A stretch of 64,000 bases of DNA from Pseudomonadales bacterium (lineage in GTDB: Bacteria > Pseudomonadota > Gammaproteobacteria > Pseudomonadales > Azotimanducaceae). A program made the translations under genes and the position numbers. The notes under the pieces are model-generated. The model was not told the DNA's origin. It saw only the letters and a list, made by a program, of their open reading frames with translations, and ran no database searches. The stretch is taken from positions 11,768 through 75,767 of the forward strand of contig CAXRCG010000048.1 in the NCBI GenBank assembly GCA_964228885.1, given 5' to 3'. Below, in pieces: positions 32,360 through 62,311 of this stretch; position 1 is the first letter of the stretch; the number at the start of each line of letters is the position of its first letter.

Positions 32360-33532
32360 TTAGGACCTTGACGTATCTGACAAGTAAGCAGCATACAAAA
32401 ACAGACTCTGAGCAATCATCAGTACCGCTGCGACAAAAACAAGAAAAAGATCATTGCCGCCAAACTCCAGCAGTCGTCCACCGACTGCCGGCGCTAGCAT
32501 CGCCGCCACACTGATCGCAGCCGGCAGTATCGGCAGTAAAAAACCACTGCCATCTGATTCGGCAACACCCGCCGAGCCATAGGCTATGGTGAAGTTCCAG
32601 CCGGAATTAAGCAACACAAGCGCGAAAGTAACACCCAACGCTGTCATCGGGCGCATCAACAAGACCACGCTGATAGCGATAATGATCGAACCGCCAAGCA
32701 ACATGACAAAACGGCTCGGCCATTGGCCCATGAATGCCGGAATAAGCCCGGTCAACCCACCCAGCAAAAGCGCCACAGATATTGCTCCCCCGGCAGCTTC
32801 AGCGGTCAAACCACCTGACTGGACGATTCTGTCGATAAAAGCCCAAAGTCCAGTGATACCCAGGTAAAAAATAAACATCGCTAGGACTCCAAGTTTTGGC
32901 GCTAGAACGGCGCCCTTGATAGCCACAAGACAGTCGCGCAAACCTACCTGCTTAAGCAAGAACCTGCCGCTCTCTGGCACAAACCTTGACAAAAAAAGCG
33001 AGAGCAAACAAATCAATGACAGGAAATACATGCTGCCCTGAAAACCAAAATAAGGGGCGATTAATACAGGTATCGCGAACGCGACAATCGCAGCCAGACC
33101 TACCTGGGACACGATACATATCCCGATCGCTCTATCAGGTTCATCTGTATCTCCCAAGTAAGTAAAAACCGGGGTATAGATAAAAGCCATGACTACGCCG
33201 AGCGCAAACAAAAAGAGCGCAATGACCTCAAAACTTTCAAGATGCGGAATCGTTGCAAAAATTAAAATAGAGCAAAATAGACTGACGTTCACGGCTCTTT
33301 GCCAGTTAACCCGGCGCACCCAGAACATGGCAACAATTGTGATTATCGTAAAACCAGCAAAGTAGGATGAGCCTAGGTCGCCTACTTGAGAATCACTGAA
33401 ATTCCTTGTCTAGCCAATTAGCGATAGAAGAATCGGCATAACGTTAAAAACCAGTGCACTGATCGCCACCAGAAAAGACAATGTAATGAGTTTCGGTAGC
33501 GTTGCATTGATAGGCTTTTGAGTAGGTCGCAA
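32360..33532 (-). pseudogene. MFS-type transporter interrupted by a single in-frame TAG
   Basis: The 322 aa track ORF lacks TM1. Reading upstream in the same frame gives (TTG 33532) RPTQKPINATLPKLITLSFLVAISALVFNVMPILLSLIG-TAG(33410-33412)-TRNFSDSQVGDLGSSYFAGFTIITIVA-MFWVRR. The reconstructed length of about 390 codons is normal for an MFS. Confidence 0.55.
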
Positions 33533-33868: not shown

Positions 33869-34423
33869 CTAGGTAATGTTGTCTAAAACGGTTTGACCCA
33901 TACTGGGCTTTTCCGTGTCTAACCCGATGACCTTCAGCATCTCTAACACTTCGTCCTTGAGGGCTTCAGAGGCGACTTCCCTTTCCTCTTCAGAGGAAAG
34001 ATTTTGCCCAACGTTATATAGCCTTTTTACATACTTAGCTGGTATCCATGACAAAACCTCACCCTTAGTGCCGCCAATGGAGGCCTCTGGTTCCGGCTCT
34101 TCTCGAATCCCTTTTTTAGCGTCATAAATACCCTGCTCGACTATTTCTTCGATATGTCGCTGCAGGATATAGGCATACCTCTTCCTCACTTCCGTAATTC
34201 TCTCACTAGCATCGGATTGGTCTGACAGGGCATCCCATATTTCCTTGCCGAGCAACCCTAAAAGTGGCCCACCCTTTTTAGGCAAGGGTGCAGCTTTCCT
34301 TTGCTTTGTCCTTTTTTCAAGCTCAGACGTTTTCTTCAAAAGGTAAAAGAGTAAAGCGAACACAATGAAAAAGAGCACTAACAACATGATCATCAAAAGC
34401 ACTTCAACACTCGATTGCGCCAT
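33869..34423 (-). CDS. hypothetical single-pass membrane protein (ORF184), last gene of the fliP-flhB transcription unit
   Basis: N-terminal TM (LLMIMLLVLFFIVFALLFYLL) followed by a basic stretch. The start is 22 nt after the stop of the preceding ORF, on the same strand. Confidence 0.55.
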   Translation of the reverse strand: MAQSSVEVLLMIMLLVLFFIVFALLFYLLKKTSELEKRTKQRKAAPLPKKGGPLLGLLGKEIWDALSDQSDASERITEVRKRYAYILQRHIEEIVEQGIYDAKKGIREEPEPEASIGGTKGEVLSWIPAKYVKRLYNVGQNLSSEEEREVASEALKDEVLEMLKVIGLDTEKPSMGQTVLDNIT

Positions 34424-34445
34424 CTCTATAACCCCGTCTTTGCGA

Positions 34446-35507
34446 TCATTTATCGTCGTTCCCGGTCAATTTATAGTTCTCAGTCAATTTGTAACTCTCT
34501 GCCAATTCGGCTTTCCTTATGATGTAGAGATCACTGACTTTTTGCTGGATATCGGCAGCAATCGTTTTATCTTCAGTCATGCTGTTCTTGATCGCTCTCT
34601 GATTATTTTCAACCTGCTTCAATACTGCTAATTGGTTTTTCATTTTACCAAGAGTCTTCAGCTCGCCAAGAACACTTTGTTTCTGGGCCTCAGACAATTT
34701 CAATATATCATCCCCCTTCGCCTGAATTTCACGCCCGATGGCTGCGCCCAATCCCGAGATATCTCTGGTATGCGTTTGGGTGCTCGACTTCAAAACCTCG
34801 AGATCACTGATAATGAGCGACTGCTGACCCTCGATCGACAATAGTTGATCTTGCACATCAACCAGTTTTTCGATGCCGTCTCCTAATTGTATGCCTCTTT
34901 TAGCCACGGCGATAATCACTCGATCAAGTTCATCCGTTTTTTGCGAAAGTTGCATTGATAGCACAATATAAAACAGAATCGAAACTACTAACACAAAACC
35001 GGTTATTCCAGAGGTAACATAGATGAGCTTTCTAGCATTATCAATTTGCTGAGTGGTTGACTCTAGAATCTGTTTGATATGCGTCAACGGACCGACATTG
35101 ACACCATTAATTTTTAAGCTGACAGTTCCATCGCTAATCGAACCGCCTCCTTCAATTTCAACTCGATCACTATTTTGTGGTTGATGCTCCGTACTTGTAT
35201 CTGAAGCTGTCGCTAAATTTACTGCCTCTGAAGCTTCCTCGTCTCCTGATACATCGCTCGCGAGACTATCCCCGGCATCGTCTTCAGCTTCAGGTGCTGA
35301 TGACGTATCGCCAGACTCTGCTGGCTCCTCAACAGAAGCGTCCTCTTCTGCCGTTGAATCACTGTCGCTCACCGAATCTGTTGCCTCTATTTCGTTGGAA
35401 TCATCAACTACGCCATCTTCATCTGAAACTGATTGTTGCGTTTCTTCCTCAGACACTGATTCTTCAGCGACGCCATTGTCGGTCTGATCTTCTTTGTCAT
35501 TGGCCAT
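34446..35507 (-). CDS. hypothetical membrane protein (ORF353): acidic disordered N-terminus, one TM, coiled-coil C-terminus
   Basis: The first ~110 aa are D/E/S-rich (DSVSDSDSTAEEDASVEEPAESGD...). TM is LIYVTSGITGFVLVVSILFYIVLSM. The C-terminal half has heptad-like Q/L/K-rich sequence. Confidence 0.6.
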   Translation of the reverse strand: MANDKEDQTDNGVAEESVSEEETQQSVSDEDGVVDDSNEIEATDSVSDSDSTAEEDASVEEPAESGDTSSAPEAEDDAGDSLASDVSGDEEASEAVNLATASDTSTEHQPQNSDRVEIEGGGSISDGTVSLKINGVNVGPLTHIKQILESTTQQIDNARKLIYVTSGITGFVLVVSILFYIVLSMQLSQKTDELDRVIIAVAKRGIQLGDGIEKLVDVQDQLLSIEGQQSLIISDLEVLKSSTQTHTRDISGLGAAIGREIQAKGDDILKLSEAQKQSVLGELKTLGKMKNQLAVLKQVENNQRAIKNSMTEDKTIAADIQQKVSDLYIIRKAELAESYKLTENYKLTGNDDK

Positions 35508-35532
35508 TGATATAACCTCTTTTCTAGAATTA

Positions 35533-36957
35533 TTAGTTCATCAAATCACTTGCGGAAATGATGTAGGAATTTTCAAAACCACCGGCAGACCTTATCCTAC
35601 CCAACTCCGCTTCTCCGTAGGGGCCTTTAACCACTGCCCAATAGTTATTCTTCTTTAGTTCAACGCGAAACTGTTCTAGGGCATCGCTCTTCGCAATCCA
35701 GGCGACAGCAGCATTCTTATTTCGAAAAGCCGCTTCCTGAACAAAATACTTCGCCTCAAAAATTTCTTCTTCAGCCTTAACACCTGGAACCGATACTTCT
35801 TCGGCCTTAACATCTGGAACCGATACTTCTTCAGCCTTAACATCTGGAACCGATAATTGCGGCAAGACTTCCGCAGCTGCCACTAGTTCGGGGGCTGGCT
35901 GCTCAGGGGTGATAGATTCTACGGGCGCAATCACTTCAATAGAACCCAATATGGTTTCATCCAAGATAACCTCCTCTTGCGGCATTATAATCATCGCGGT
36001 TTCTTCATTAACCGCTTTGATTTCAATGTTATCCGGAAGACGCTCCGCTGAAGCACTCATCGGCTGATCATTTAAAAATTCTTTAACGTTAATTCTCGCA
36101 GACTCAATACCCCCGGGTATAAAGTCATCAAATAAAATAGCAGCCGGAAAAGTTATGACTAAACACATTAAAGCAGCATAACCCAAAAACCTGCCCTTCT
36201 TTATTCTGGCCAATCGAGGATCAGCTGTGTCTATGCCATCCTTGCTTTCATTTTCATCTTTCACCTGGCCGGCACTCTTATCTGCTTGAATTTTGTCAGC
36301 TAGCGCCAAAGGGTCAAATGTCACGATTTGAGCTATATCGTCTTGTGTGTCCTCTTGCACTGCTAATTTACTAACTAGCTCTCTGGCCGTTTGCAAAGAC
36401 CCGTCTGTCTCTGCTCTGAGAACGAAATCTGCGCATTGATCCGCATCCGGCAAGTCAAAGCTCCATAGTGGCGTTCTGGTTACACGCAGCCACTTTTTCA
36501 TTTCCTCGCTTCTCCAAGCTATACCAGTCGTGAGTATAAGCACAGAGATGCCTGCCTGCTTAAATTGGCTCAAGATACGATGCACAAGGGACAGCGGCGA
36601 CACTAACTCTGAGTTAGTGAGCTCGAATATCCATAATTCTTGAGTGCGCCCCTGAACTTGAGCTTGCAGATCAAATTGCTCTATTTCTCTTAATCGAACA
36701 TTGACTTTTTTAATAATCGAGTCTCGATTAAGCGGTGCTCTCTTGACCTCTCCAGTTTCTTTTTCTGTAAAAATATTAGAAACAATTTCTCGCACATAGT
36801 GCTCTTGTAGCGCGTAATTTTCACTGGTGACGACCGCCGCTGAAGCCGGATTTCTCAGATGGCTTATCACGCTTGTGACCAGCTCAGTATGCTTTTCGCT
36901 AAAACTTGAGAACGACCCAATGTATGGCTCTTTTCTTATTCCCGTATGTTTTTTCAT
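35533..36957 (-). CDS. hypothetical bitopic protein (ORF474) with a C-terminal SPOR-like peptidoglycan-binding domain
   Basis: The C-terminal ~75 aa (KYFVQEAAFRNKNAAVAWIAKSDALEQFRVELKKNNYWAVVKGPYGEAELGRIRSAGGFENSYIISASD) has the SPOR beta-alpha-beta pattern. Central TM is FLGYAALMCLVITFPAAILF, preceded by RIKKGR. The start is 23 nt after the flhB stop. Confidence 0.6.
   Translation of the reverse strand: MKKHTGIRKEPYIGSFSSFSEKHTELVTSVISHLRNPASAAVVTSENYALQEHYVREIVSNIFTEKETGEVKRAPLNRDSIIKKVNVRLREIEQFDLQAQVQGRTQELWIFELTNSELVSPLSLVHRILSQFKQAGISVLILTTGIAWRSEEMKKWLRVTRTPLWSFDLPDADQCADFVLRAETDGSLQTARELVSKLAVQEDTQDDIAQIVTFDPLALADKIQADKSAGQVKDENESKDGIDTADPRLARIKKGRFLGYAALMCLVITFPAAILFDDFIPGGIESARINVKEFLNDQPMSASAERLPDNIEIKAVNEETAMIIMPQEEVILDETILGSIEVIAPVESITPEQPAPELVAAAEVLPQLSVPDVKAEEVSVPDVKAEEVSVPGVKAEEEIFEAKYFVQEAAFRNKNAAVAWIAKSDALEQFRVELKKNNYWAVVKGPYGEAELGRIRSAGGFENSYIISASDLMN
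35766..35855 (-). repeat. 3 x 30 bp perfect-phase tandem repeat inside ORF474 (encodes VPDVKAEEVS x3)
   Basis: Units at 35766-35795, 35796-35825 and 35826-35855 differ at 1-2 nt each. Confidence 0.9.
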
Positions 36958-36980: not shown

Positions 36981-38129
36981 TTAGTTAGGCCTACGACCAT
37001 GCTCATCAAACCATAACTCTTTTGGCACCTTTGGTTTGGGCTTCTTAAGACTTGTTCCCTCTTCTTTTGCCATTCCCAATCCAAAGACATAAGCAATGAC
37101 TTGAGCAACGGCCAAAAATAAAGCCTGAGGAATATAGTGACCGAGTTCAGTTGTAAAATAGATTGCTCTTGCAAGCTGGGGTGACTCAAACACTAGCACT
37201 TGGTTTTCATTTGCGATCTCTTTAATTTTTTGAGCAATAAGACCTTTGCCTTTTGCCAACACTTTTGGCGCAGCCTCAGAGTCCTTGTCATAGCTCAGAG
37301 CAACAGCGAAATGTTCGGGGTTAGTAATGACAACATCAGCGGCAGGGACATCCTGTAACATCCTTTGCTCGGCCATTTCCCGCTGTTTTTGTTTAATCTT
37401 CTGACGGACCTCGGGCTGACCCTCCATTTCTTTAAATTCGTCTTTTATTTCTTGCTTTGTCATCTTCAACTTTCTGATGAATTCATATCTTTGATATGGC
37501 ACATCAATTGCTGCTATCACCGCCAGCGCGACGGAAACAATCAGCGCGCCGAACAAAACAAATGAAGCAGCGTCATAAATACTCGTAGCAATATCACCTC
37601 TGGAAAATAGGAGAACTTGCTCATAATTGCTGTATAGATATATCCCTGCAGTCAAAGCAACCAACGAAAACTTTAGGACAGATTTCACGAGCTCAACGAC
37701 CGCTTTAAGACCAAAAATTCTTGCAAGGCCAGAGATTGGATTAATCTTACTTGCTTTCGGTGCAATGGCTTTCCAAGAAAACACAAAACCATCCAATGCT
37801 GTTGCACCAAAAATGGCTAACAACATCGAGATTGCAAGCACGGGACTGAGCACCAGGTAACTCTCCCCGAAAATGCTCGCTAACCGAACAACCAACGCCG
37901 ATTCATCTTTAACAGAATCGACGGAAAAGATCAGGCTATCCTTGAACAACTCAATAAACCGAGGTGCCAGAAAGAAGCTGAGTGAGTATAAAGACGCAAT
38001 AAAACCGATCGTGACAACCGCGATTGTCATATCTTGGGACCGCAAAACTTGTCCATCTTCTCGTGCTTTTTCGATTCTACGAGAGGTCGGTTCTTCGGTT
38101 TTTTCTTCTTGAGGCGTATCTTCAGCCAT
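36981..38129 (-). CDS. flhB: flagellar type III export gate / substrate-specificity switch protein FlhB
   Basis: N-terminus EEKTEEPTSRRIEKAREDGQV, four TM segments, and a C-terminal autocleavage region VVITNPEHFAVAL. Confidence 0.92.
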   Translation of the reverse strand: MAEDTPQEEKTEEPTSRRIEKAREDGQVLRSQDMTIAVVTIGFIASLYSLSFFLAPRFIELFKDSLIFSVDSVKDESALVVRLASIFGESYLVLSPVLAISMLLAIFGATALDGFVFSWKAIAPKASKINPISGLARIFGLKAVVELVKSVLKFSLVALTAGIYLYSNYEQVLLFSRGDIATSIYDAASFVLFGALIVSVALAVIAAIDVPYQRYEFIRKLKMTKQEIKDEFKEMEGQPEVRQKIKQKQREMAEQRMLQDVPAADVVITNPEHFAVALSYDKDSEAAPKVLAKGKGLIAQKIKEIANENQVLVFESPQLARAIYFTTELGHYIPQALFLAVAQVIAYVFGLGMAKEEGTSLKKPKPKVPKELWFDEHGRRPN

Positions 38130-38133: not shown

Positions 38134-38901
38134 TTATCCGCCTAGTATCAGATTAAGTCGACGAAAGGCCAAAAACCAAAGGTTCTCAACCTGTGCGAAC
38201 CAGAGAGGCATCGTTAGCAGCAGCATACCTAGCCCTGCAGGAATCAAAGCAGGAAAACCGACAGCAAACACATTGAGGCTCGGCGCAGCTCTCGAGATAA
38301 TGCCAAGAGATGAATTAATTAGCAGCAAGCCAAAAATTATTGGAAAAGCGATGGACACTGCGCCTAGGAAAATTTGCGAGGTCCAAACAACAAAATTTTG
38401 GATCATTAAATCACCGAACACACCAGAGGCTATCGGGACAAGTTCAAAGCTCTGTTGGAGCACAGAAATTAAAATAAGATGCCCGCCAAAGCTCATAAAC
38501 AGCAGAAAGCCGACAACGATAAAGAACTGAGACAAGGTAGGCACATTACCCACATTCGGGTCGATCATATTGGCCATACTTAACCCCATCCCACCCGCAA
38601 TAATTTGGCCACTCACTATTAATCCGGCAAGGACAATTTGTAGCGTAATACCCATTAAACCGCCGACAAGGATCTCGTGGGTGATGCCTAATACTGCTCC
38701 AAAGCTAAACGGGTCAATTTCCGGGATTTCGATTAACGGGTAGATCATCCACGTCAATACTAGGCTTAACAGCAACGTGACCCTGAGGTTTATCGCTGCC
38801 TGTGAAAAGAACGGCACTGTCATTATAAAAGCGGACACTCTAATCATTGGCCACAGAAACGTTTCCAGTAAATTTATGACATGAGGTGCTAGGATTTCCA
38901 T
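38134..38901 (-). CDS. fliR: flagellar export gate protein FliR
   Basis: 255 aa polytopic protein between fliQ and flhB. Confidence 0.9.
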   Translation of the reverse strand: MEILAPHVINLLETFLWPMIRVSAFIMTVPFFSQAAINLRVTLLLSLVLTWMIYPLIEIPEIDPFSFGAVLGITHEILVGGLMGITLQIVLAGLIVSGQIIAGGMGLSMANMIDPNVGNVPTLSQFFIVVGFLLFMSFGGHLILISVLQQSFELVPIASGVFGDLMIQNFVVWTSQIFLGAVSIAFPIIFGLLLINSSLGIISRAAPSLNVFAVGFPALIPAGLGMLLLTMPLWFAQVENLWFLAFRRLNLILGG

Positions 38902-38906: not shown

Positions 38907-39176
38907 CTAGTATTCCATGGTTCTTATACGTTCAAAGACTGTGTCGAAATAGTCCATCATCACAGCCAACTGCCACTCACCAAAAATTATGAGCGCCAAC
39001 AACATCACCCCCAGCTTGGGAATAAAACTCAAAGTCATCTCTTGAATCGAGGTCGCGGCTTGCAAAATACCAACAATTAAACCCGTACCCAGCGCAGCGC
39101 CAAGGATTGGTGCTGCCACCATCACCGTCACAAACAATGCTTCTACGGCAAGATCCATGACTATTCCAGGTTCCAT
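38907..39176 (-). CDS. fliQ: flagellar export gate protein FliQ
   Basis: 89 aa from ATG 39176 (MEPGIVMDLAVEALFVTVMVAAPILG), two TM. The track extension overlaps fliP. Confidence 0.9.
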   Translation of the reverse strand: MEPGIVMDLAVEALFVTVMVAAPILGAALGTGLIVGILQAATSIQEMTLSFIPKLGVMLLALIIFGEWQLAVMMDYFDTVFERIRTMEY

Positions 39177-39181: not shown

Positions 39182-39973
39182 CTATCCCACTGCAAAAGTT
39201 GAAATCAAAGAACCCGTAATAAGACCCCACCCATCAACTAAAACGAAAAGTAATAGCTTAAAGGGTAGTGAAATCATCATCGGAGAGAGCATCATCATAC
39301 CCATAGACATCAAGACACTGGCGACCACAAGGTCAATGATGATGAAGGGAATGTAGATTAAAAAACCAATGGTAAACGCGGTTTTTAATTCAGATGTTAG
39401 AAAGGCTGGCATGAGCGTGGATAGGGGAATTTGGCTAACGTCTTCCACGGGTTCGTCATCTGCCATTTCCATAAACATGAGTAAGTCTTTCTCCCTTACC
39501 TGCGCCAGCATGAAACCCCGCATGGGTGGTAATGCTAGCTCTAAGCCTTCTTGAAATGTCACTTCGTTAGCTTGCACCGGGAGATAAGCACCTTCGTAAA
39601 CCTGATCAAAGACCGGCTTCATGATAAATATTGATAAGAAAACAGCGATACCAATAAGCACTTGGTTGGGTGGCGTTTGACCGGTGCCTAATGCCTGCCT
39701 GACCAACGACAAAACAATGATGATTCTCGTAAACGATGTCATCAAAACAACAATCGAAGGCAGTATGGTAAGAATCGACATCAGCACAAGGATCTGGAGC
39801 GACAACCCATACTCAGATCCAGCGTCATTTGCCGTAATTAACGTCAGAGCAGGCCCAAGCTCCGAGGCACTCGCAGATTCTCCAAGGGCACATAACATCA
39901 AAGTAAAAAATACTTTGACCAGCTTCGTGACAGCAGGTTGGACCTCTCTGATTTTTGAAAACAACAAACTCAT
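39182..39973 (-). CDS. fliP: flagellar export gate protein FliP
   Basis: 263 aa with a signal-like N-terminus and the conserved blocks LMTSFTRIIIVLSLVRQALG and GQTPPNQVLIG. Confidence 0.92.
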   Translation of the reverse strand: MSLLFSKIREVQPAVTKLVKVFFTLMLCALGESASASELGPALTLITANDAGSEYGLSLQILVLMSILTILPSIVVLMTSFTRIIIVLSLVRQALGTGQTPPNQVLIGIAVFLSIFIMKPVFDQVYEGAYLPVQANEVTFQEGLELALPPMRGFMLAQVREKDLLMFMEMADDEPVEDVSQIPLSTLMPAFLTSELKTAFTIGFLIYIPFIIIDLVVASVLMSMGMMMLSPMMISLPFKLLLFVLVDGWGLITGSLISTFAVG

Positions 39974-40022: not shown

Positions 40023-40038
40023 TGCAATTAAGGGGCCA
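40023..40038 (-). promoter_or_regulatory. sigma54 (-24/-12) promoter for fliPQR-flhB-ORF474-ORF353-ORF184
   Basis: The minus strand reads TGGCCC-cttaa-TTGCA, with GG and GC spaced exactly as in the consensus TGGCAC-N5-TTGCA. It lies about 50 nt upstream of the fliP ATG. Confidence 0.6.
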
Positions 40039-40193: not shown

Positions 40194-40904
40194 ATGCAAA
40201 TGCGAATCGGATTTCTTCTTCTCGTTTGCCTTTGTGCCAACGCCGAGGAGCAACAAGAAATAGCGTACCCCTATAAGACTTGCTTCGAGAGTGCAGGGAA
40301 GCAGTACAAAATCAGTCCTGGTTTCTTGGCATCTGTCGCTAGCGTAGAGAGCAGCTTGAACCCTAGCGCCGTCTCAAGCTCAAATGCGATAGGTTTAATG
40401 CAAATCAAGTGGCCTTTAACGGCGGCGGAATTAGGCATTAGTAGCCGAGATCAACTGTTTGATCCCTGCTTGAACATCCATGCTGGGGCAAAATACCTCA
40501 ACCAGCTGGAGGCTCGCTTCGAAAGTCGCATGCTCGCACTCGCGGCATACCACATTGGGCCCACCAGAGTGTCAGCTATTGAGGCCATTCCAAAGCCAAC
40601 GCTTAGCTACATTGAAAAAATCTATCGGGAAGAAGCGCTGCTGGCCCATTCATCCTCACTGGCAGATCTTGGGTCCTGCCAAATAGCCGGGCTTATCAAT
40701 CTGACGGTAAAAACCCATCACCCAAAACAGCGCCAGATCGAAGTAATTGAGTGGCTGACTAACACGCATCAGTTCTGCTCAATTGCGAAACTCACAGGTT
40801 TTAAAAACCGGTTACCCGAGCTTATGGGTACCGCAGATGCCGACGGGAAAGTCGATCGACTCCTCGATCGTATATTGGCGTTGAAAGTGAACCTTCAGAG
40901 ATAA
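40194..40904 (+). CDS. Sec-exported soluble lytic transglycosylase (SLT domain), candidate flagellum-specific SltF-like enzyme
   Basis: Signal peptide MQMRIGFLLLVCLCANA. Catalytic block SVASVESSLNPSAVSSSNAIGLMQI (E-S ... GLMQ) and AYHIGP. Embedded in the flagellar cluster. Confidence 0.8.
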   Translation: MQMRIGFLLLVCLCANAEEQQEIAYPYKTCFESAGKQYKISPGFLASVASVESSLNPSAVSSSNAIGLMQIKWPLTAAELGISSRDQLFDPCLNIHAGAKYLNQLEARFESRMLALAAYHIGPTRVSAIEAIPKPTLSYIEKIYREEALLAHSSSLADLGSCQIAGLINLTVKTHHPKQRQIEVIEWLTNTHQFCSIAKLTGFKNRLPELMGTADADGKVDRLLDRILALKVNLQR

Positions 40905-40953: not shown

Positions 40954-42807
40954 TTACTGAAGGAGTTGAATGACCAACTGTGCACGAGCATTGGCCTGCG
41001 ATAACATCGCTGTGCCTGCTTGTTGTAATACCTGCGCTTTCGCTAGGTTAGCCGACTCTACCGAGTAGTCTGCGTCGTTAATTCTAGACCGAGCGTCAGC
41101 GGTATTTTCAGCAACGTTCATCAGGTTTGATACCGTGTAAGACAATCGATTCTCTATCGCACCGAGATCCGCACGCATTGAGGAGATTTTCTCAATTGCA
41201 CCATCCAATACGAAGATGGCGTTGGAAGCACTTGCCTGGTTTCTCAAGTCCACATTTGAAACCGTTGCTAGCGTCGCTGCGCCGGTCGTAAAGTAGTTAT
41301 CGTTTGCCGCTGCTTCAGCACCTGACTGCGTCACCGAAAACAACTTATTGGAAGACAAACTAATGGTGCCCTGGACTGTCGCTGAATCGCCAGTCGTCGT
41401 ATCGCCTTCAAACGACGTTGTCCCTGCCGGCAACAATCTTACATCGTGCGTCCCCAACAGACCCAGGGTGTCGCTGGTGCTCTCCAGTACGCTCGTAGTA
41501 AGGCTTGAATTTCCAAAAATCTGAAAGTCTCCTAATGCAGCTGTACCAGTAAACGTAATCTTATTAATATTACTCACCGCAGCGGTTAGGTGATAATCTC
41601 CGCCATCCCCCCATTTTCCGCTCAAATTGTCGAGCGCGGTGTTCAGCCTACTAACTTGAGTCGCCGGAGTTGAACTCGTTAACCAAGAAAATGACTTCGT
41701 CTCACCGGTGTGTTGATTTCGGATATAACCTGTCCACGTAGCACCATTTCCAATCGCATCAGGATACTGTGTTTCCTTTGCACCCGCGACCGCGCCCGAA
41801 AGGGCTGCAACACTTGTACCGTCATGGCTGACTGCCGCCACACGCTGACCAAGAATAGCTGTCTCATTCTCAACCAAAATATCGCGTCCATCATTTGCGT
41901 ATAAGCGTACTCTATTATCACTGGTCGCCGTCGCCGTGACGCCTGTGCTGCCAGAGATCGCGTTGATCTTATCAACAGCATCGAGCACGTTACTTGAACT
42001 AACTACAAACTCACCCGTCGTCTTATTGTTAATCTTCAGACTGGCGGTTTGATCCGCATGCCAAGTACTGTAGTAGTGGGCATAGGTCTTTGCTATAGCA
42101 CTGACGCCGGTCTCACCGGAGACAGCATTGATGTTTGCTGCGACATTAGCTGCAGAATCCTTCGCGGAGACAGCTATCGTCCTGGATAAGCGATTACCGT
42201 TGATAAGAATATCGTCCGCATCGTCTGTCTGGTTGGCATAAACGCCATTGCCATCACCCTCAAATGCCGCGATTCGATCGCCGGTTACTTTATAAGCACC
42301 GAGTTTGTCAGCTGATACCGAGTCGACAGAGAACTGAATCGTTTCGCCACCTTCGGTACCTGACTGCAGCACTTTATTAGAGAAACTACCGTCTAATAAG
42401 GTGGTCTGGTTAAATCGCGTGTTGGCTGATACGCGAGTAATCTCTGCAATTAACAGGTTGACCTCTTCCTGCAGGAATGCGCGATCAGTATTTGTGTTGG
42501 TATCGTTAGCTGATTGTACCGCGAGCTCCCTGACACGCTGAAGCATATCCACCACTTCAACCAAAGCGCCTTCAATCGACTGTGTTAACGAAATACCATC
42601 GTTAGCATTTTTTACGGCCATATTCAGGCCATTGATTTGAGCACGCATTCGTTGGACGATCGCCAGGCCGGCTGCATCATCAGCAGCGCGATTAATACGA
42701 CTACCGGAAGACAATCGCGCCATCGCTTTATCAAGCATATCACCTGACTCAGCCAACCCGCTTTGCGCTGCTAATGAACTTAGGCTTGTGTTTACGATTA
42801 AGGACAT
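40954..42807 (-). CDS. flagellin, large class (617 aa), downstream copy
   Basis: N-terminus SLIVNTSLSSLAAQ...LSSGSRINRAADDAAGLAI. C-terminus RLSYTVSNLMNVAENTADARSRINDADYSVESANLAKAQVLQQAGTAMLSQAN. The ~350 aa central insert has two ING..L..TIAV...DSAANVA..INAVSGETGVSA-type (flagellin IN-motif-like) repeats. Confidence 0.92.
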   Translation of the reverse strand: MSLIVNTSLSSLAAQSGLAESGDMLDKAMARLSSGSRINRAADDAAGLAIVQRMRAQINGLNMAVKNANDGISLTQSIEGALVEVVDMLQRVRELAVQSANDTNTNTDRAFLQEEVNLLIAEITRVSANTRFNQTTLLDGSFSNKVLQSGTEGGETIQFSVDSVSADKLGAYKVTGDRIAAFEGDGNGVYANQTDDADDILINGNRLSRTIAVSAKDSAANVAANINAVSGETGVSAIAKTYAHYYSTWHADQTASLKINNKTTGEFVVSSSNVLDAVDKINAISGSTGVTATATSDNRVRLYANDGRDILVENETAILGQRVAAVSHDGTSVAALSGAVAGAKETQYPDAIGNGATWTGYIRNQHTGETKSFSWLTSSTPATQVSRLNTALDNLSGKWGDGGDYHLTAAVSNINKITFTGTAALGDFQIFGNSSLTTSVLESTSDTLGLLGTHDVRLLPAGTTSFEGDTTTGDSATVQGTISLSSNKLFSVTQSGAEAAANDNYFTTGAATLATVSNVDLRNQASASNAIFVLDGAIEKISSMRADLGAIENRLSYTVSNLMNVAENTADARSRINDADYSVESANLAKAQVLQQAGTAMLSQANARAQLVIQLLQ

Positions 42808-42852
42808 GATGTGTCCTCCACCTATCTAAGTTATTGCCTCAAGACAATGTAG

Positions 42853-42950
42853 TATAAAAACTTTTCACCTACCCTGACCGATACACCAGATACAGATGGG
42901 AAAGTAGACCAAATGCTAGATCGCATCCTTGCTTTGAAAATAAGCCATTC
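42853..42950 (+). pseudogene. relic of the 3' end of the lytic transglycosylase gene (duplication scar)
   Basis: The frame reading KNFSPTLTDTPDTDGKVDQMLDRILALKI aligns with the end of the intact gene at 40806-40904 (KNRLPELMGTADADGKVDRLLDRILALKV). The flanking nucleotides are also homologous. Confidence 0.7.
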
Positions 42951-42954
42951 CTCT

Positions 42955-42992
42955 TTAAAAAAGAAAAAGCCGGAGGAGTCACCTCCCCCGGC
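42955..42992 (-). terminator. Rho-independent terminator after the upstream large flagellin gene
   Basis: The minus strand has the hairpin gccggggga-ggtgac-tcctccggc followed by tttttcttttttaaa. Confidence 0.65.
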
Positions 42993-43031
42993 CTTTTTCC
43001 AAACCTTCATTATCAATAGAGTGAATCTATT

Positions 43032-44885
43032 TTACTGAAGGAGCTGGAGGACCAACTGTGCACGAGCATTAGCTTGCGATAACATCGCGGTGCCCGCTTG
43101 TTGTAGTACCTGTGCTTTTGCTAGGTTAGCCGATTCAACTGAATAGTCTGCATCGTTAATCCTAGACCGAGCGTCGGCGGTATTTTCAGCAACATTCATC
43201 AGGTTTGATACGGTATAAGACAATCGATTCTCAATCGCACCTAAATCAGCTCGCATTGAGGAGATTTTCTCAATCGCACCGTCCAATACCGAGATGGCGT
43301 TGGAAGCACCTGCCTGATTTCTCAGATCTACATTAGAGACCGTTGAAAGCGTCGCTGCACCGGTCGTAAAGTAGTTATCGTTTGTTGCTGCTTCGGTGCC
43401 TGATTGCGTCACCGAAAATAACTTGCTGGAAGACAAACTAATGGTGCCCTGGATTGTTGCCGAGTCGCCAGTACTTGTATCGCCCTCAAACGAGGTTGTG
43501 CCTGCGGCCAACAATCTTACATCGTGCGTGCCCAACTTACCCAGCGTGTCACTTGTGGTTTCTAGTGCAGAAGTGCTCATAGCAGAGTCTTCAAACACTT
43601 GGAAATCTCCTAGTGCCGTGGTACCAGTGAGCGTAATCTTATTAGTATTACTCACCGCGGCAGTTAAGTGATAATCTCCACCAGCTGCCCATTTTCCGCT
43701 CAAATTGCCGAGAGCGGTATTCAAGTTACTAACCGTGGTGGCCTGCGTTGCATTATCAACAAAAGAGACTGACGTTGACTCACCAGTATGTTGATTTCGG
43801 ATATACCACGTTATCGTAGACCCGTCTCCAGCAGCGTCATTATCAGCCGTTTCCTTAACACCTGCGACAGCGCCTGAAAGGGCCGCAACGCTAGTGCCGT
43901 CATGGCTGACTGCAGCCACACGCTGACCAAGAATAGACGTCTCATTCTCAACCAGAATGTCGCGTCCGTCACTTGCATACAAGAGTACTTTGTTATCGCT
44001 GGTAGCAGATGCCGTCACGCCAGTGCTGCCAGAGATCGAGTTGATCTTATCTATCGCATCAAGCACGTTAGTAGAACTGACAACAAACTGGCCCGTCGTC
44101 TTATTGTTTATCTTCAGACTGGCTGTTTGGTCCGCATTCCAAGTGCTGTAGTAGTGAGCATAACTCTTTGCTACCGCACTCACGCCCGTTTCGCCAGAGA
44201 CCGCGTTGATATTTGTTGCGACATTAGCTGCAGAATCCTTCGCGGCAACAGCGATCGTCTTGGATAAGCTATTACCGTTGATTATGATATCGTCCGCATC
44301 ATCGGTCTGGTTGAGAAAAACGCCATTACCGTCACCTTCAGTGGCCGCAATTCGATCTCCAGTAATTTTATATGCACCAAGCTTATCGCTTGATACCGAA
44401 TCCACAGAGAACTGAATCGTTTCGCCACCTTCAGTACCTACCTGCAGTGTCTTATTGCTGAAAGAACCGTCTAACACTGTGGTCTGGTTAAATCGCGTGT
44501 TGGCTGATACGCGAGTGATCTCTGCAATCAGGAGGTTAACCTCTTCCTGCAGGAAGGCGCGGTCAGTATTTGTGTTGGTATCGTTAGCTGATTGTACCGC
44601 TAGCTCTCTCACACGTTGAAGCATATCGACCACTTCAACCAAAGCGCCTTCAATCGACTGTGTTAACGAAATACCATCGTTAGCATTTTTTACGGCCATG
44701 TTCAGGCCATTGATTTGAGCACTCATTCGCTGAACGATGGCCAAACCGGCCGCATCGTCAGAAGCGCTATTAATACGACTGCCGGAAGACAATCGCGCCA
44801 TGGCTTTATCAAGCATATCACCTGACTCAGCTAACCCTCTTTGAGCTGTTAATGAACTCACGTTTGTGTTTACTACTAGAGACAT
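43032..44885 (-). CDS. flagellin, large class (617 aa), upstream copy
   Basis: Same architecture as 40954-42807 and near-identical termini. Differences cluster in the central domain. Confidence 0.92.
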   Translation of the reverse strand: MSLVVNTNVSSLTAQRGLAESGDMLDKAMARLSSGSRINSASDDAAGLAIVQRMSAQINGLNMAVKNANDGISLTQSIEGALVEVVDMLQRVRELAVQSANDTNTNTDRAFLQEEVNLLIAEITRVSANTRFNQTTVLDGSFSNKTLQVGTEGGETIQFSVDSVSSDKLGAYKITGDRIAATEGDGNGVFLNQTDDADDIIINGNSLSKTIAVAAKDSAANVATNINAVSGETGVSAVAKSYAHYYSTWNADQTASLKINNKTTGQFVVSSTNVLDAIDKINSISGSTGVTASATSDNKVLLYASDGRDILVENETSILGQRVAAVSHDGTSVAALSGAVAGVKETADNDAAGDGSTITWYIRNQHTGESTSVSFVDNATQATTVSNLNTALGNLSGKWAAGGDYHLTAAVSNTNKITLTGTTALGDFQVFEDSAMSTSALETTSDTLGKLGTHDVRLLAAGTTSFEGDTSTGDSATIQGTISLSSSKLFSVTQSGTEAATNDNYFTTGAATLSTVSNVDLRNQAGASNAISVLDGAIEKISSMRADLGAIENRLSYTVSNLMNVAENTADARSRINDADYSVESANLAKAQVLQQAGTAMLSQANARAQLVLQLLQ

Positions 44886-45362: not shown

Positions 45363-46091
45363 CTAATCGGTTTCCTGGATCAAATCAAAGCAAAATTCTT
45401 GCTGCGCCTCAACGTGGTCCCACATCTGCGTGATCGTTTCTTTCTGCGACTCTACACGCTCACGTAAACCCAACAAGGCTTCTTTATTACGAGTAGCTGA
45501 GTCATAAACTTCTTCCAGACGCTCTAGGTTTTCTTGCGCTTTTTCGAAAACCGCTTCGTGCTTGGCGAGGTTTACTGCCGCTAATTCGCCGACGTTTTCT
45601 ATTTGATTAAGCGTCTCTACATAGTCTTGTTGTGCGCAATGATCACCTTCAGCAAGTGAATCATGATTGTATTCGAGCAGTTTATCATTGGTTTCCAAGA
45701 TTTCACCAATCATGCCAACCAACTGCGAGTTAATGTTGGAGAGTTTCTTGTTAATATCTAGCACAGCCTTATTCAAGCTTGATCTTTTATCGAGATAATC
45801 TAATTCTGCCTGATCTACGACGCCTCTGGCCAACTCCTCTGAACAACCTGCCTGAGTACTTTGGTGCTGTAGAATCACCTTCTTATTTCGCACAATCGCT
45901 TGGCAGGCATCGTTTAATAATTGCCTGCTTTCATTGAAAGCCGCGTTAGCCAACTCCATGCCAACATGGGTATTTTCAGCAATTCTAATTCTGTTGGTAT
46001 AGGCGCGTAGTTTGTTGGCATCAACTAGGGCTTCTAGTTCGTAATAAATATAGGCAACCTGTTTGGTGATCTTTGCGGGGGGCTTATTCAT
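45363..46091 (-). CDS. hypothetical coiled-coil protein (ORF242) immediately downstream of fliO
   Basis: 242 aa, no TM, long helical/heptad-like stretches. Only 39 nt separate it from the fliO stop. Confidence 0.55.
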   Translation of the reverse strand: MNKPPAKITKQVAYIYYELEALVDANKLRAYTNRIRIAENTHVGMELANAAFNESRQLLNDACQAIVRNKKVILQHQSTQAGCSEELARGVVDQAELDYLDKRSSLNKAVLDINKKLSNINSQLVGMIGEILETNDKLLEYNHDSLAEGDHCAQQDYVETLNQIENVGELAAVNLAKHEAVFEKAQENLERLEEVYDSATRNKEALLGLRERVESQKETITQMWDHVEAQQEFCFDLIQETD

Positions 46092-50511: not shown

Positions 50512-50527
50512 TGCAACAACTATGCCA
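50512..50527 (-). promoter_or_regulatory. sigma54 promoter for fliK-fliLMNO(-ORF242)
   Basis: The minus strand reads TGGCAT-agttg-TTGCA, between the fliJ stop (50538) and the fliK ATG (50476). Confidence 0.6.
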
Positions 50528-58026: not shown

Positions 58027-58061
58027 TTTCTCGCTCTCATTTAAGTCAGTGAGAATATTAA

Positions 58062-58077
58062 AGCAACTGCCGTGCCA
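58062..58077 (-). promoter_or_regulatory. sigma54 promoter for the 487 aa activator (and probably fliE-J)
   Basis: The minus strand reads TGGCAC-ggcag-TTGCT, a near-perfect consensus, 36 nt upstream of ATG 58026. Confidence 0.7.
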
Positions 58078-58172
58078 ACATTTTATTTTCTTATAAAACA
58101 ACAACTTAAAAGAGAAACGGCAAAGTTCCGGCCAGACCATACCGGTTTTGTCAACTTTTCGACACCTTCTTC

Positions 58173-62306: not shown

Positions 62307-62311
62307 AATCC

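What the first reader, a model, noticed from the sequence alone, without database searches (positions are those of the whole stretch)
33869..36957. Three uncharacterised membrane proteins fused to the fliPQR-flhB operon where flhA/flhF/flhG are expected
Downstream of flhB, on the same strand, lie ORF474, ORF353 and ORF184, separated by gaps of only 23, 25 and 22 nt. The only readable promoter for the whole unit is the sigma54 site upstream of fliP, so these genes are most simply part of the export-gate operon.

In Pseudomonas- and Vibrio-type clusters this position is occupied by flhA-flhF-flhG(fleN)-fliA. None of those genes is in the window.

Together the three proteins combine a cytoplasmic domain, a periplasmic SPOR-like peptidoglycan-binding domain, acidic repeat or disordered regions, and coiled coils. 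HubP/FimV-type polar landmark proteins and ExeA/DamX-type PG-anchoring factors have a similar ingredient list, but the arrangement here is split and topologically different.

Hypothesis: this is a flagellum-associated PG-anchoring, positioning or assembly module that has not been described.
Basis: partly seen in the sequence, partly recalled or inferred. Interest (0 to 1): 0.72.

Follow-up and report, generated by a model that had tools for sequence, protein, structure and literature searches.

The report
Undescribed flagellar module downstream of flhB
Three small-gap genes after flhB are real, conserved, so far unnamed flagellar-cluster genes of marine Gammaproteobacteria, encoding membrane proteins that probably tie the flagellar assembly site to the cell wall.

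Summary
On the minus strand, fliP-fliQ-fliR-flhB is followed by ORF474, ORF353 and ORF184 with gaps of 23, 25 and 22 nt. A sigma54-type site lies upstream of fliP, and no promoter- or terminator-like signal lies in between.

All three genes are under purifying selection (dN/dS 0.10-0.17).

ORF474 has a cytoplasmic AAA+-like domain with no Walker A, one transmembrane helix, a disordered repeat linker and a periplasmic SPOR domain. ORF353 has an acidic tail, one transmembrane helix and a coiled coil. ORF184 has an N-terminal membrane anchor and a helical cytoplasmic domain.

The ORF474 family is tiny: 38 clusters among 1.84 billion representatives. In every locus where upstream sequence exists (23, at least 13 clusters, FlhB down to 40% identity) it directly follows flhB, and wherever downstream sequence is readable an ORF353 homologue follows, in two lineages after an extra small ORF. 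In SAR92 relatives the ORF184 homologue instead ends the flhA-flhF-flhG-fliA operon, which is the position FipA holds in Vibrio.

The module therefore co-exists with FlhF/FlhG rather than replacing them. Apart from SPOR, no Pfam or NCBIfam family and no paper describes it.

Most likely role: a flagellum-specific, peptidoglycan-reading positioning or assembly complex. This is inferred, not shown.

The parts
40024..40038 (-). sigma54-type promoter element (TGGCCCCTTAATTGC) upstream of fliP; the only candidate promoter for fliPQR-flhB-ORF474-ORF353-ORF184
   Evidence: Pattern TGGC-N7-TTGC gives 13 hits in the window against 3.4 expected. This one lies about 50 nt upstream of the fliP ATG.
39182..39973 (-). 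fliP
   Evidence: ORF of 263 aa. Its homologue in L001 hits PF00813 FliP.
38907..39176 (-). fliQ (89-aa form; the 107-aa GTG ORF listed by the tool overlaps fliP)
   Evidence: PF01313 for the homologue in L001, which is 89 aa.
38134..38901 (-). fliR
   Evidence: PF01311 for the homologue in L001.
36981..38129 (-). flhB
   Evidence: Pfam Bac_export_2, E=9e-119.
35533..36957 (-). ORF474: bitopic inner-membrane protein, N-terminus in the cytoplasm, with four regions (pseudo-AAA+ domain / TM / disordered linker / SPOR)
   Evidence: The family has 38 clusters and lies downstream of flhB in every locus with upstream sequence.
36358..36915 (-). ORF474 aa 15-200: cytoplasmic AAA+-like alpha/beta domain plus helical lid; it lacks a Walker A motif (pseudo-ATPase)
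   Evidence: AF2 pLDDT is 57-91 per 10-residue block (mostly 63-91), with a (beta-alpha)x5 + 2 helices topology. Foldseek gives 27 PDB hits at E<=1e-3, essentially all P-loop ATPases and mostly AAA+ (clamp loaders, DnaA domain III, ORC/Cdc6, ATAD2, NSF, ClpC). No GxxxxGK[ST] occurs in 27 members. dN/dS is 0.05-0.09.
36121..36189 (-). ORF474 transmembrane helix (about aa 257-279)
   Evidence: Hydropathy maximum 2.19. K/R count in the flanks is 3.70 on the N side against 1.15 on the C side across the family, which indicates N-in topology.
35766..35855 (-). 30-nt x 3 tandem repeat encoding VSVPDVKAEE x3 within the disordered periplasmic linker; copy number varies between close homologues
   Evidence: TRF score 166, 95% matches. 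The alignment shows copy-number variation. Linker dN/dS is 0.28-0.38.
35536..35757 (-). ORF474 aa 401-474: periplasmic SPOR domain
   Evidence: PF05036 is hit in 19 of 27 family members, best E=8.6e-09. AF2 predicts beta-alpha-beta-beta-alpha-beta at pLDDT 69-87 per block for aa 401-470. Alignment to FtsN SPOR keeps Q251 (=Q407) and has A at the S254 position, as in RlpA. hhalign to the DamX SPOR gives E=7.7e-05.
34446..35507 (-). ORF353: bitopic protein with a variable acidic N-terminal region (aa 1-150, 43 D+E against 4 K+R), a TM helix (about aa 163-187; nt 34947-35021), a conserved juxtamembrane motif ELDRVxxAVAKRGIQLGDGIE, a coiled-coil-like C-terminal half, and a C-terminal DLYxIxKAE motif
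   Evidence: Homologues lie after every ORF474-family gene that has downstream sequence. dN/dS of the TM + coiled-coil part is 0.06-0.11.
33869..34423 (-). ORF184: N-terminal membrane anchor (aa 7-29; nt 34337-34405) and an all-helical cytoplasmic domain with invariant motifs YxxxLxRHxE...EQGxxD and GGTxGxxxSWxP
   Evidence: AF2 pLDDT 75, helices only. K/R flanks are 0.05 on the N side against 3.45 on the C side, so the C-terminus is cytoplasmic. 87 homologues were found, all unnamed. See alignments. Homologues occur in L020/L031 (third gene) and in L021 (end of the flhA-flhF-flhG-fliA operon).
40194..40904 (+). SLT-family lytic transglycosylase, divergent from fliP; a conserved neighbour of the operon in many related loci
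   Evidence: Pfam SLT, E=2e-27. It is found upstream of fliP in L001-L004, L006-L009, L014, L015 and L031. It is absent from that position in L021 and L032.

Best explanation
The three genes encode a flagellum-dedicated inner-membrane accessory module. It is made together with the export-gate proteins FliP/Q/R and FlhB from the sigma54 promoter upstream of fliP.

**ORF474** spans the membrane once.
- Its periplasmic SPOR domain, on a roughly 120-residue flexible linker, binds peptidoglycan. The most likely target is the peptide-free ('denuded') glycan that amidases leave at the septum and therefore at the new pole.
- Its cytoplasmic AAA+-like domain has lost the nucleotide-binding P-loop. It would act as a docking or oligomerisation platform rather than as a motor.

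**ORF353** has an acidic cytoplasmic tail, one TM helix and a periplasmic coiled coil. It is the obligate partner of ORF474.

**ORF184** is membrane-anchored with a cytoplasmic helical domain. It is a FipA-like adaptor on the cytoplasmic face.

**Proposed role.** Together they mark or hold the envelope site where the export gate and MS ring are nucleated. They couple that site to the cell wall and act alongside the FlhF/FlhG system, not instead of it.

**Shown here:** gene reality, operon-like arrangement, domain architecture, topology bias, strict linkage to flhB, and co-occurrence with flhF/flhG in two lineages.

**Inferred:** peptidoglycan binding, complex formation, and the positioning or assembly role.
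For: **Linkage to flhB.**
- The ORF474-family gene lies immediately downstream of flhB in 23 of 23 loci that have upstream sequence. These cover at least 13 of the 50%-identity clusters.
- ORF474 identity falls to about 21% and FlhB identity to 40% across them.
- Gaps are 11-40 nt in most loci (about 135 nt between flhB and the ORF474 homologue in the SAR92-type loci L021/L022), or the ORFs overlap.

**Partners.**
- An ORF353 homologue follows wherever sequence allows. HMM E-values are 2.9e-27, 1e-11 and 1.5e-11 in the most distant lineages.
- The ORF184 homologue is the third gene in the window lineage, in group 2 and in the P0141 lineage (E=3.7e-45).
- In SAR92-type genomes it is the last gene of the convergent flhA-flhF-flhG-fliA operon (E=2.3e-16). 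FipA holds that position in Vibrio, Pseudomonas and Shewanella (PMC11620751).

**Flagellar neighbourhood.** In another lineage the module lies between flhB and motAB, with flhA-flhF upstream.

**Restricted family.** There are 38 clusters among 1.84e9 representatives.

**Domains.**
- SPOR.
- AAA+-like fold without Walker A.
- Topology.

**Selection.** Purifying selection is concentrated on the folded domains.

**Transcription.** A sigma54 site lies upstream of fliP and there is no internal promoter- or terminator-like signal.

**Established knowledge.** SPOR domains target proteins to septal denuded glycans (PMC6895207).
Against: - There are no functional data of any kind. Co-transcription is inferred from spacing only.
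- The window protein's own SPOR score is sub-threshold (E=0.43).
- FtsN R285, one of the residues that matter for septal localisation, is not conserved here: A441 occupies the aligned position.
- The AF2 model of ORF474 rests on a shallow alignment of 15 sequences, and the N-domain pLDDT is only 57-91 per block.
- Foldseek E-values are modest, about 3e-4.
- ORF184 shows no DUF2802 signal in 20 members plus 2 distant homologues, so the FipA analogy rests on architecture and gene position only.
- The topology of ORF353 is only weakly supported (K/R 2.29 against 1.57).
- I could not establish whether the window genome itself has flhF/flhG, HubP or FipA.
- ORF184 is missing next to the module in the P0152, P0155 and P0157 lineages.
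Confidence: 0.45

Rival explanations
1. Cell-wall penetration helper. ORF474 and ORF353 would work like ExeA/ExeB (GspA/GspB) do for the type II secretin. In this reading a cytoplasmic AAA+-type domain coupled through the membrane to a peptidoglycan-binding domain organises local wall remodelling, together with the neighbouring SLT lytic transglycosylase. That would let the rod and the periplasmic rings pass the sacculus.
For: - The architecture matches E. coli GspA: AAA_22 / TM / periplasmic PG_binding_1, followed by a small bitopic partner, GspB.
- An SLT gene sits divergently upstream of fliP in most related loci.
- The AAA+-like fold is supported.
Against: - There is no detectable sequence homology to GspA (hhalign probability 0.2).
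- Walker A is absent in all 27 members, so no ATP-driven step is possible in the canonical way.
- The peptidoglycan-binding domain is of a different kind (SPOR rather than PG_binding_1).
- SLT is absent from that position in the SAR92-type and P0157 lineages, which still keep the module.
- SPOR domains recognise amidase products, not lytic-transglycosylase products (PMC6895207).
Confidence: 0.2
2. Structural motor accessory. The proteins would form a peptidoglycan-anchored scaffold around the basal body, comparable in role to MotY/FlgT/PflAB-type periplasmic structures or to FliL. Such a scaffold would stabilise stators or the high-torque motor of marine bacteria.
For: - There is a peptidoglycan-binding domain plus a long periplasmic coiled coil.
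- In one lineage the module abuts motAB.
- The SAR92-type locus carries LPP20/FlgP-like and weakly FlgT_C-like genes nearby, so these motors probably have periplasmic disks.
Against: - The best-conserved part of ORF474 is cytoplasmic (dN/dS 0.05-0.09), and ORF184 is wholly cytoplasmic apart from its anchor.
- From general knowledge, known disk and scaffold proteins are secreted or are lipoproteins.
- The genes are co-expressed with the earliest assembly components rather than with stator or late genes. This is inferred from operon position.
Confidence: 0.15
3. Export-gate modulators. The module would bind FlhB or FlhA and tune gate opening or substrate switching, as FlhE does at the end of the enterobacterial flhBAE operon. 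In this reading SPOR serves only as a tether.
For: The module always sits directly after flhB, often with translational-coupling-like overlaps. Examples are a 4-nt overlap between flhB and the ORF474 homologue in L019 and L032, and overlaps between the ORF474 and ORF353 homologues in L006 and L016.
Against: - Nothing in the sequences points to FlhB binding.
- ORF184 can move to the flhF/flhG operon, which fits positioning better than gate control.
- There is no similarity to any known gate regulator.
Confidence: 0.1
4. Not flagellar at all. ORF474 would be a DamX/FtsN-like cell-division SPOR protein, with two unrelated membrane proteins that merely neighbour flhB.
For: The SPOR domain aligns to DamX and FtsN. 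The bitopic N-in topology with a C-terminal SPOR domain is shared with DamX.
Against: - The gene follows flhB in 23 of 23 loci, across FlhB identities of 40-95%, with operon-like spacing.
- In two lineages flagellar genes lie on both sides.
- The family is tiny and restricted.
- Only the SPOR domain aligns to DamX.
Confidence: 0.05

Closest known systems
HubP / FimV polar landmark proteins (Vibrio, Shewanella, Pseudomonas)
   Same: Both combine a periplasmic peptidoglycan-binding domain, a single TM helix and a long acidic cytoplasmic region, and both are linked to polar flagellum placement with FlhF (PMC12918733 abstract; PMC11620751).
   Different: - The peptidoglycan binder here is SPOR, not LysM.
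- The acidic region is on a separate protein (ORF353).
- ORF474 carries an AAA+-like pseudo-ATPase domain.
- No FimV/TPR C-terminal domain was detected.
- The genes sit inside the flagellar export-gate operon.
FipA (DUF2802, FlhF-interaction partner A)
   Same: - ORF184 has the same size class and layout. FipA is 163 aa, with aa 1-5 periplasmic, a TM at 6-28, then a cytoplasmic coiled region and domain. ORF184 is 184 aa, with a TM at about 7-29 and a cytoplasmic helical domain.
- In the SAR92-type locus the ORF184 homologue is the last gene of the flhA-flhF-flhG-fliA operon. That is FipA's position.
   Different: - No DUF2802 match at E<=1 was found in 20 family members or in 2 distant homologues.
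- In the window lineage the gene sits after flhB-ORF474-ORF353, not after the flhF operon.
- FlhF binding is untested.
ExeA/GspA-ExeB/GspB (type II secretion assembly factors)
   Same: Both have a cytoplasmic AAA+-type domain, one TM helix and a periplasmic peptidoglycan-binding domain, encoded next to a small bitopic partner. Both are accessory to an envelope-spanning machine.
   Different: - hhalign probability is 0.2, so there is no detectable homology.
- GspA has AAA_22 with a P-loop, a C39-like domain and PG_binding_1.
- ORF474 has no Walker A, no C39-like domain, and SPOR instead.
- The context is flagellar rather than T2SS.
DamX / FtsN / DedD / RlpA (SPOR-domain division proteins)
   Same: Both have a C-terminal SPOR domain on a flexible periplasmic linker in an N-in bitopic protein. 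The key Gln of beta1 is conserved.
   Different: - The cytoplasmic domain is unrelated.
- The gene context is flagellar, not division-related.
- FtsN R285 is not conserved.
AAA+ pseudo-ATPases such as clamp-loader delta/delta-prime
   Same: Both have an AAA+ alpha/beta core plus helical lid without a functional P-loop. E. coli gamma-complex chain 1jr3_D is among the Foldseek hits.
   Different: The similarity is at the level of fold only (9-13% identity). ORF474 is membrane-tethered and flagellar.

Membership tests
SPOR domain (PF05036) | Significant match to the SPOR profile | tested here: met
   The window protein alone scores E=0.43. However, 19 of 27 family members match, best E=8.6e-09. 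The P0124 group carries a precomputed PF05036 annotation. hhalign to the DamX SPOR gives E=7.7e-05.
SPOR domain (PF05036) | beta-alpha-beta-beta-alpha-beta fold | tested here: met
   AF2 predicts E404-411, H414-423, E430-434, E440-447, H449-457 and E465-468, with pLDDT 69-87 per block for aa 401-470.
SPOR domain (PF05036) | Glycan-contact residues of the beta-sheet (FtsN Q251, S254/Ala, W283/Leu, R285) | tested here: inconclusive
   - Q407 corresponds to Q251 and is conserved in 26 of 27 members.
- A410 sits at the S254 position. Ala occurs there in RlpA, and S254A is tolerated.
- Y439/W440 lie near the W283 position.
- R285 aligns to A441, so it is not conserved.
SPOR domain (PF05036) | Binding to denuded peptidoglycan and septal localisation | not testable with these tools
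   This needs sacculus pull-down or ITC assays and microscopy.
AAA+ ATPases | AAA+ alpha/beta core plus helical lid fold | tested here: met
   The topology is (beta-alpha)x5 + 2 helices. The top 27 Foldseek PDB hits at E<=1e-3 are essentially all P-loop ATPases, mostly AAA+.
AAA+ ATPases | Walker A P-loop GxxxxGK[ST] | tested here: not met
   It is absent at the beta1-alpha1 junction in all 27 members. That junction instead carries a conserved (D/E/x)HY motif.
AAA+ ATPases | Walker B hhhhDE | tested here: inconclusive
   A single acidic residue is kept at the end of beta3 in most members (LWIFE, VWIVD), but there is no DE pair.
ExeA/GspA | Sequence homology to GspA (AAA_22 + C39-like + PG_binding_1) | tested here: not met
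   hhalign of the family profile against E. coli GspA gives probability 0.2. No family member hits AAA_22, GspA_C39-like or PG_binding_1, whereas GspA itself does.
ExeA/GspA | Encoded with type II secretion genes and acting on a secretin | tested here: not met
   All contexts are flagellar.
FipA (DUF2802) | Short periplasmic N-terminus, one TM helix, cytoplasmic C-terminal domain, about 160-200 aa | tested here: met
   For ORF184. The FipA layout is taken from PMC11620751.
FipA (DUF2802) | DUF2802 domain | tested here: not met
   No PF10975 hit at E<=1 was found in 20 family members or in the L021 and L020 homologues. A profile-profile test against DUF2802 could not be run.
FipA (DUF2802) | Gene immediately downstream of the flhA-flhF-flhG-fliA(-che) operon; present only with FlhF/FlhG | tested here: inconclusive
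   This is met in the SAR92-type loci L021/L022, where the order is flhA-flhF-flhG-fliA-180-212 and the 212-aa protein is the ORF184 homologue. It is not met in the window, L006, L007 or L020/L031, where the gene follows ORF353. Whether the window genome has FlhF/FlhG is unknown.
FipA (DUF2802) | Direct interaction with FlhF | not testable with these tools
   This needs two-hybrid or pull-down experiments.
HubP/FimV | Periplasmic LysM domain, cytoplasmic acidic repeats and a C-terminal FimV/TPR domain in one polypeptide | tested here: not met
   No LysM or FimV hits were found in any of the three families. The acidic region and the peptidoglycan binder are on different proteins.
DamX | Homology over the cytoplasmic domain and the dam-operon context | tested here: not met
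   hhalign aligns only 65 columns, all in the SPOR domain. The context is flagellar.

The most novel reading that the evidence does not exclude
The module would be a previously unrecognised 'birth-scar reader' for flagellar placement.
- The SPOR domain of ORF474 would read septal denuded glycan and so mark the new pole.
- Its pseudo-AAA+ domain would oligomerise into a template on which FliPQR/FlhB and the MS ring nucleate.
- ORF184 would be a structurally convergent, or extremely diverged, FipA that hands the site to FlhF/FlhG.

This would give abundant marine Gammaproteobacteria (SAR92/Porticoccaceae and relatives) a HubP-independent route to polar flagellation. It would also link cell-wall amidase activity directly to organelle positioning.
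Probability: 0.25. Interest if true: 0.8.

Novelty: new variant of a known kind. Interest (0 to 1): 0.62.

Why it matters
**An open question.** How polar flagellates choose and hold the assembly site is still unsettled. HubP and FipA explain only part of FlhF recruitment (PMC11620751).

**What this module offers.** It is a compact, operon-encoded set of three new protein families.
- It combines a septal-peptidoglycan reader (SPOR), a nucleotide-blind AAA+-like platform and a FipA-like anchor.
- It is physically tied to the export-gate genes.
- In one lineage a component sits in the flhF/flhG operon.

That makes a concrete and testable hypothesis: division-site cell-wall chemistry could be used as the landmark for a flagellum.

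**Annotation value.** The finding also adds three families to flagellar gene annotation for abundant but poorly studied marine bacterioplankton (SAR92/Porticoccaceae-type MAGs). These genes are currently labelled 'hypothetical', or are mislabelled 'archaellum component FlaC'.

Tried and rejected
**Single-sequence searches.**
- Pfam, NCBIfam and PHROGs scans of the three window proteins gave nothing significant.
- phmmer against PDB sequences gave 0 hits. The profile search against PDB gave only chance hits, plus DedD at E=6.2.

**Homologue searches.**
- The first homologous-protein run returned only relatives at 77-99% identity.
- The profile run with distant members returned just 11 hits. The candidate filter was probably saturated by low-complexity words.
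- As a result the structure job for ORF474 had a shallow alignment.

**Locus searches.**
Smaller subsets had to be used.

**Structure and profile comparisons.**
- Foldseek of the ORF184 model against PDB gave nothing (best E=1.9).
- hhalign against E. coli GspA was negative. Against DamX, only the SPOR domain aligned.

**Ideas considered and rejected.**
- That ORF184 is a sequence-level FipA: no DUF2802 signal.
- That the triad replaces FlhF/FlhG: rejected after finding flhF/flhG or flhF beside the module in L021/L022 and L032.

**Attempts that led nowhere.**
- Extending the window to find flhA, using exact look-ups of the right-hand flagellins, gave no record or only short contigs.
- No intrinsic terminator was found after ORF184 (z=-0.58).
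- Literature searches for 'SPOR + flagellar/flhB' and for 'Porticoccaceae flagellar' gave no relevant paper.

Full report
**1. Observation**

The minus strand carries the following genes:
- fliP, 39182-39973
- fliQ, 38907-39176
- fliR, 38134-38901
- flhB, 36981-38129 (Pfam Bac_export_2, 9e-119)
- ORF474, 35533-36957
- ORF353, 34446-35507
- ORF184, 33869-34423

The last three are separated by gaps of 23, 25 and 22 nt. Each start codon has a purine-rich ribosome-binding-like stretch.

- A sigma54-type element, TGGCCCCTTAATTGC, lies at 40024-40038 (-), about 50 nt upstream of fliP.
- A second such element (50513-50527) precedes fliK.
- None lies on the minus strand between flhB and ORF184.
- No sigma28-like site lies there.
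- Sigma70-like and terminator-like hits in the region are at or below the shuffle expectation.

Upstream, still on the minus strand, lie:
- two sigma54 activators;
- fliE, F, G, H, I, J, K, L, M, N, O;
- an unknown 242-aa ORF;
- two 617-aa flagellins.

A divergent SLT lytic transglycosylase also lies in this region.

Downstream lie a truncated MFS gene, an amidase gene and the nuo operon.

No flhA, flhF or flhG is in the window.

**2. The genes are real**

Against relatives at about 80% and about 61% ORF474 identity, dN/dS values are:

| Gene or region | dN/dS |
|---|---|
| ORF474, whole | 0.16 |
| ORF474 N-domain | 0.05-0.09 |
| ORF474 SPOR | 0.08-0.12 |
| ORF474 linker | 0.28-0.38 |
| ORF353, whole | 0.10-0.17 |
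| ORF353 TM + coiled coil | 0.06-0.11 |
| ORF184 | 0.11 |
| flhB | 0.03-0.06 |

**3. Anatomy of ORF474**

- *Family alignment.* The 27-sequence alignment (A2) shows a conserved N-terminal domain (about aa 15-200), a variable linker, one TM helix, a variable acidic and proline-rich linker, and a conserved C-terminal domain of about 70 residues.
- *Topology.* K/R counts around the TM helix are 3.70 on the N side against 1.15 on the C side. This places the N-domain in the cytoplasm.
- *Structure prediction.* AlphaFold2, run on a shallow 15-sequence alignment, gives three regions:
  - a (beta-alpha)x5 + 2-helix N-domain, at pLDDT 57-91 per block;
  - disorder over aa 202-400;
  - a beta-alpha-beta-beta-alpha-beta C-domain, at pLDDT 69-87 per block.
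- *Fold search.* Foldseek against PDB returns 27 hits at E<=1e-3, essentially all P-loop ATPases and mostly AAA+. They include T4 and RFC clamp loaders, DnaA domain III, ORC/Cdc6, ATAD2, NSF and ClpC.
- *Nucleotide-binding motifs.* No member has a Walker A motif. A (D/E)HY motif occupies that junction, and only a single acidic residue remains at the Walker B position. The N-domain is therefore an AAA+-like pseudo-ATPase.
- *SPOR domain.*
  - PF05036 is hit in 19 of 27 members, best 8.6e-09.
  - hhalign to the DamX SPOR gives E=7.7e-05.
  - The beta1 Gln (FtsN Q251) is conserved as Q407.
  - Ala sits at the S254 position, as in RlpA.
  - FtsN R285 is not conserved.
- *Linker repeat.* The linker contains a 30-nt x 3 tandem repeat (VSVPDVKAEE). 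Its copy number differs among close homologues.

**4. Anatomy of ORF353 and ORF184**

ORF353:
- The first 150 residues hold 43 D+E against 4 K+R. This region is highly variable in length and sequence between lineages.
- It is followed by a TM helix, a strongly conserved juxtamembrane stretch (ELDRVxxAVAKRGIQLGDGIE), a heptad-like helical half and a conserved C-terminal DLYxIxKAE motif.
- Its only Pfam signals are weak coiled-coil families.
- Flank charges (2.29 against 1.57), the basic N-terminus in group 3 and the lack of a signal peptide all favour an N-in topology with a periplasmic coiled coil. This is the least certain topology of the three.

ORF184:
- It has an N-terminal anchor (K/R 0.05 against 3.45, so the C-terminus is cytoplasmic).
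- Its cytoplasmic domain is all-helical (AF2 pLDDT 75), with invariant motifs.
- It has no PDB fold match and no Pfam match.

**5. Distribution and synteny**

An exhaustive HMMER pass over 1.84 billion representative proteins found only 38 clusters for ORF474, about 27 of them full length with the same architecture. Every source name is 'hypothetical protein'. The taxa named are marine Porticoccaceae/SAR92, Pseudomonadales, Ca. Azotimanducaceae and unclassified Gammaproteobacteria MAGs.

Contexts were recovered from GTDB genomes (L002-L010), from metagenomes (L011-L016) and by exact look-ups (L001, L019-L024, L031, L032).

In all 23 loci that have upstream sequence, the family member directly follows flhB. 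ORF474 identity falls to about 21% and FlhB identity to 40-44% across these loci.

An ORF353 homologue follows in every locus with enough sequence. In the SAR92-type and P0157 lineages an extra 126-137-aa ORF sits in between.

An ORF184 homologue is the third gene in:
- the window lineage;
- group 2 (L006, L007);
- the P0141 lineage (L020/L031, HMM E=3.7e-45).

**6. Relation to flhA/flhF/flhG**

- In SAR92-type contigs (L021/L022) the order is fliI...fliR-flhB-534-126-332. A convergent operon flhA-flhF-flhG-fliA-180-212 follows. Its last gene (212 aa) is the ORF184 homologue (HMM E=2.3e-16).
- In the P0157 lineage (L032), flhF and flhA lie divergently upstream of fliK...flhB-528-137-329, and motB and motA converge on the module.

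The module is therefore embedded in flagellar clusters and co-exists with FlhF (and with FlhG in the SAR92-type loci). It does not replace them.

In the window lineage, in L006/L007 and in L031 the module ends the cluster, and unrelated genes follow.

**7. Comparison with known systems**

- *FipA.* FipA is 163 aa, with aa 1-5 periplasmic, a TM at 6-28 and a cytoplasmic coiled region plus DUF2802. It is encoded right after the flhA-flhF-flhG-fliA-che operon and is needed with HubP to recruit FlhF (PMC11620751). ORF184 matches this architecture, and in SAR92 it also matches the gene position. No DUF2802 signal was found.
- *HubP/FimV.* These share the ingredient list of a peptidoglycan binder, a TM helix and an acidic cytoplasmic region. 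They use LysM and a FimV domain, all in one chain.
- *ExeA/GspA.* It shares the layout of AAA+ domain, TM helix and peptidoglycan binder, plus a bitopic partner. It is not detectably homologous (hhalign probability 0.2), and it has a P-loop.
- *DamX.* It shares only the SPOR domain.

**8. Interpretation**

Firmly supported (about 0.85): this is a flagellum-associated, operon-encoded accessory module made of three undescribed protein families.

Best mechanistic reading (about 0.45) is a cell-wall-coupled site-marking or anchoring complex for early flagellar assembly, working with FlhF/FlhG. It rests on four points:
- SPOR domains target septal denuded glycan.
- The genes are co-expressed with the first-assembling gate proteins.
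- There is a FipA-like third component.
- One component migrates to the flhF/flhG operon.

Rivals:

| Rival | Confidence |
|---|---|
| ExeAB-like wall-penetration helper acting with the neighbouring SLT | 0.2 |
| Periplasmic motor scaffold | 0.15 |
| Export-gate modulator | 0.1 |
| Non-flagellar SPOR division protein | 0.05 |

**9. Limits**

- There are no expression or functional data.
- The alignment behind the ORF474 model is shallow.
- The topology of ORF353 is weakly supported.
- The flhF/flhG, hubP and fipA content of the window genome is unknown.
- The FipA relationship was tested only with the Pfam HMM.

Noticed in passing
window 45363-46091 (-): An unannotated 242-aa helical, coiled-coil-like ORF lies between fliO and the large flagellin genes. 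It has no Pfam or NCBIfam family and is 91% conserved in the 80%-identity relative L001 (947-1675). It may be another lineage-specific flagellar gene.
   Followed up: partly
window 40954-44885 (-) and 40194-40904 (+): Two 617-aa flagellin paralogues and a divergent SLT lytic transglycosylase are inserted between fliO and fliP, splitting the usual fliLMNOPQR-flhB run. Two further 293-aa flagellins lie at 61425-63416 (+). In SAR92-type and P0157-lineage loci fliO abuts fliP directly (L021, L032). In L001 one large flagellin is broken into four ORFs.
   Followed up: partly
window 32360-33532 (-): The MFS transporter gene downstream of ORF184 looks disrupted. The window has a 322-aa ORF plus a 40-aa TM1-like fragment in another frame, whereas near-identical strains have an intact 390-aa gene (L028, L030). 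The gene is absent altogether from the 80%-identity relative L001.
   Followed up: partly
window 50513-50527 (-): A second sigma54-type element (TGGCATAGTTGTTGC) lies just upstream of the fliK start. This suggests a separate sigma54 promoter for fliK-fliO.
   Followed up: no
window 34465-34507 (-strand gene ORF353, 3' end): An 18-nt x 2.4 tandem repeat encodes SYKLTENYKLTGN at the extreme C-terminus of ORF353. Relatives L002 and L003 have one copy fewer.
   Followed up: no
L021 11652-12032 (+), L019 2658-3071 (+), L032 11587-12000 (+): In the SAR92-type and P0157 lineages an extra small ORF (126-137 aa, no TM helix, no Pfam hit) sits between the ORF474-like and ORF353-like genes. The two versions are not obviously alike.
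   Followed up: partly
L021 13724-14266 (-): A 180-aa soluble protein lies between fliA and the ORF184 homologue. It shares a short motif with the C-terminal half of ORF184 (YxPxExAKxxFxLG against SWIPxKYVKRLYNxG; BLASTP E=0.004). It may be an anchorless paralogue.
   Followed up: no
L021 19766-21569 (+): Next to flhA in the SAR92-type contig lie an LPP20/FlgP-like lipoprotein (E=6.7e-06) and a 433-aa protein with a weak FlgT_C match (E=0.0022). These hint at Vibrio-type periplasmic motor disks in this clade.
   Followed up: no
cluster of L021:12029-13027: JGI/IMG labels the SAR92 ORF353-like protein 'archaellum component FlaC'. This is almost certainly a coiled-coil artefact in a bacterial flagellar cluster.
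   Followed up: no
L002 (PBXZ01000238.1) and L010 (CAJQGN010000188.1): Contigs carrying this gammaproteobacterial fliPQR-flhB module are binned as 'Candidatus Poribacteria' and 'Acidimicrobiales' MAGs. FlhB is 85% and 63% identical to the window's, so these are probably mis-binned contigs.
   Followed up: no
window 58173-59204 (-) and 56563-58140 (-): Two adjacent sigma54-dependent activators lie upstream of fliE. The 343-aa one consists of only the AAA+ and DNA-binding parts, with no receiver or other N-terminal sensory domain.
   Followed up: no
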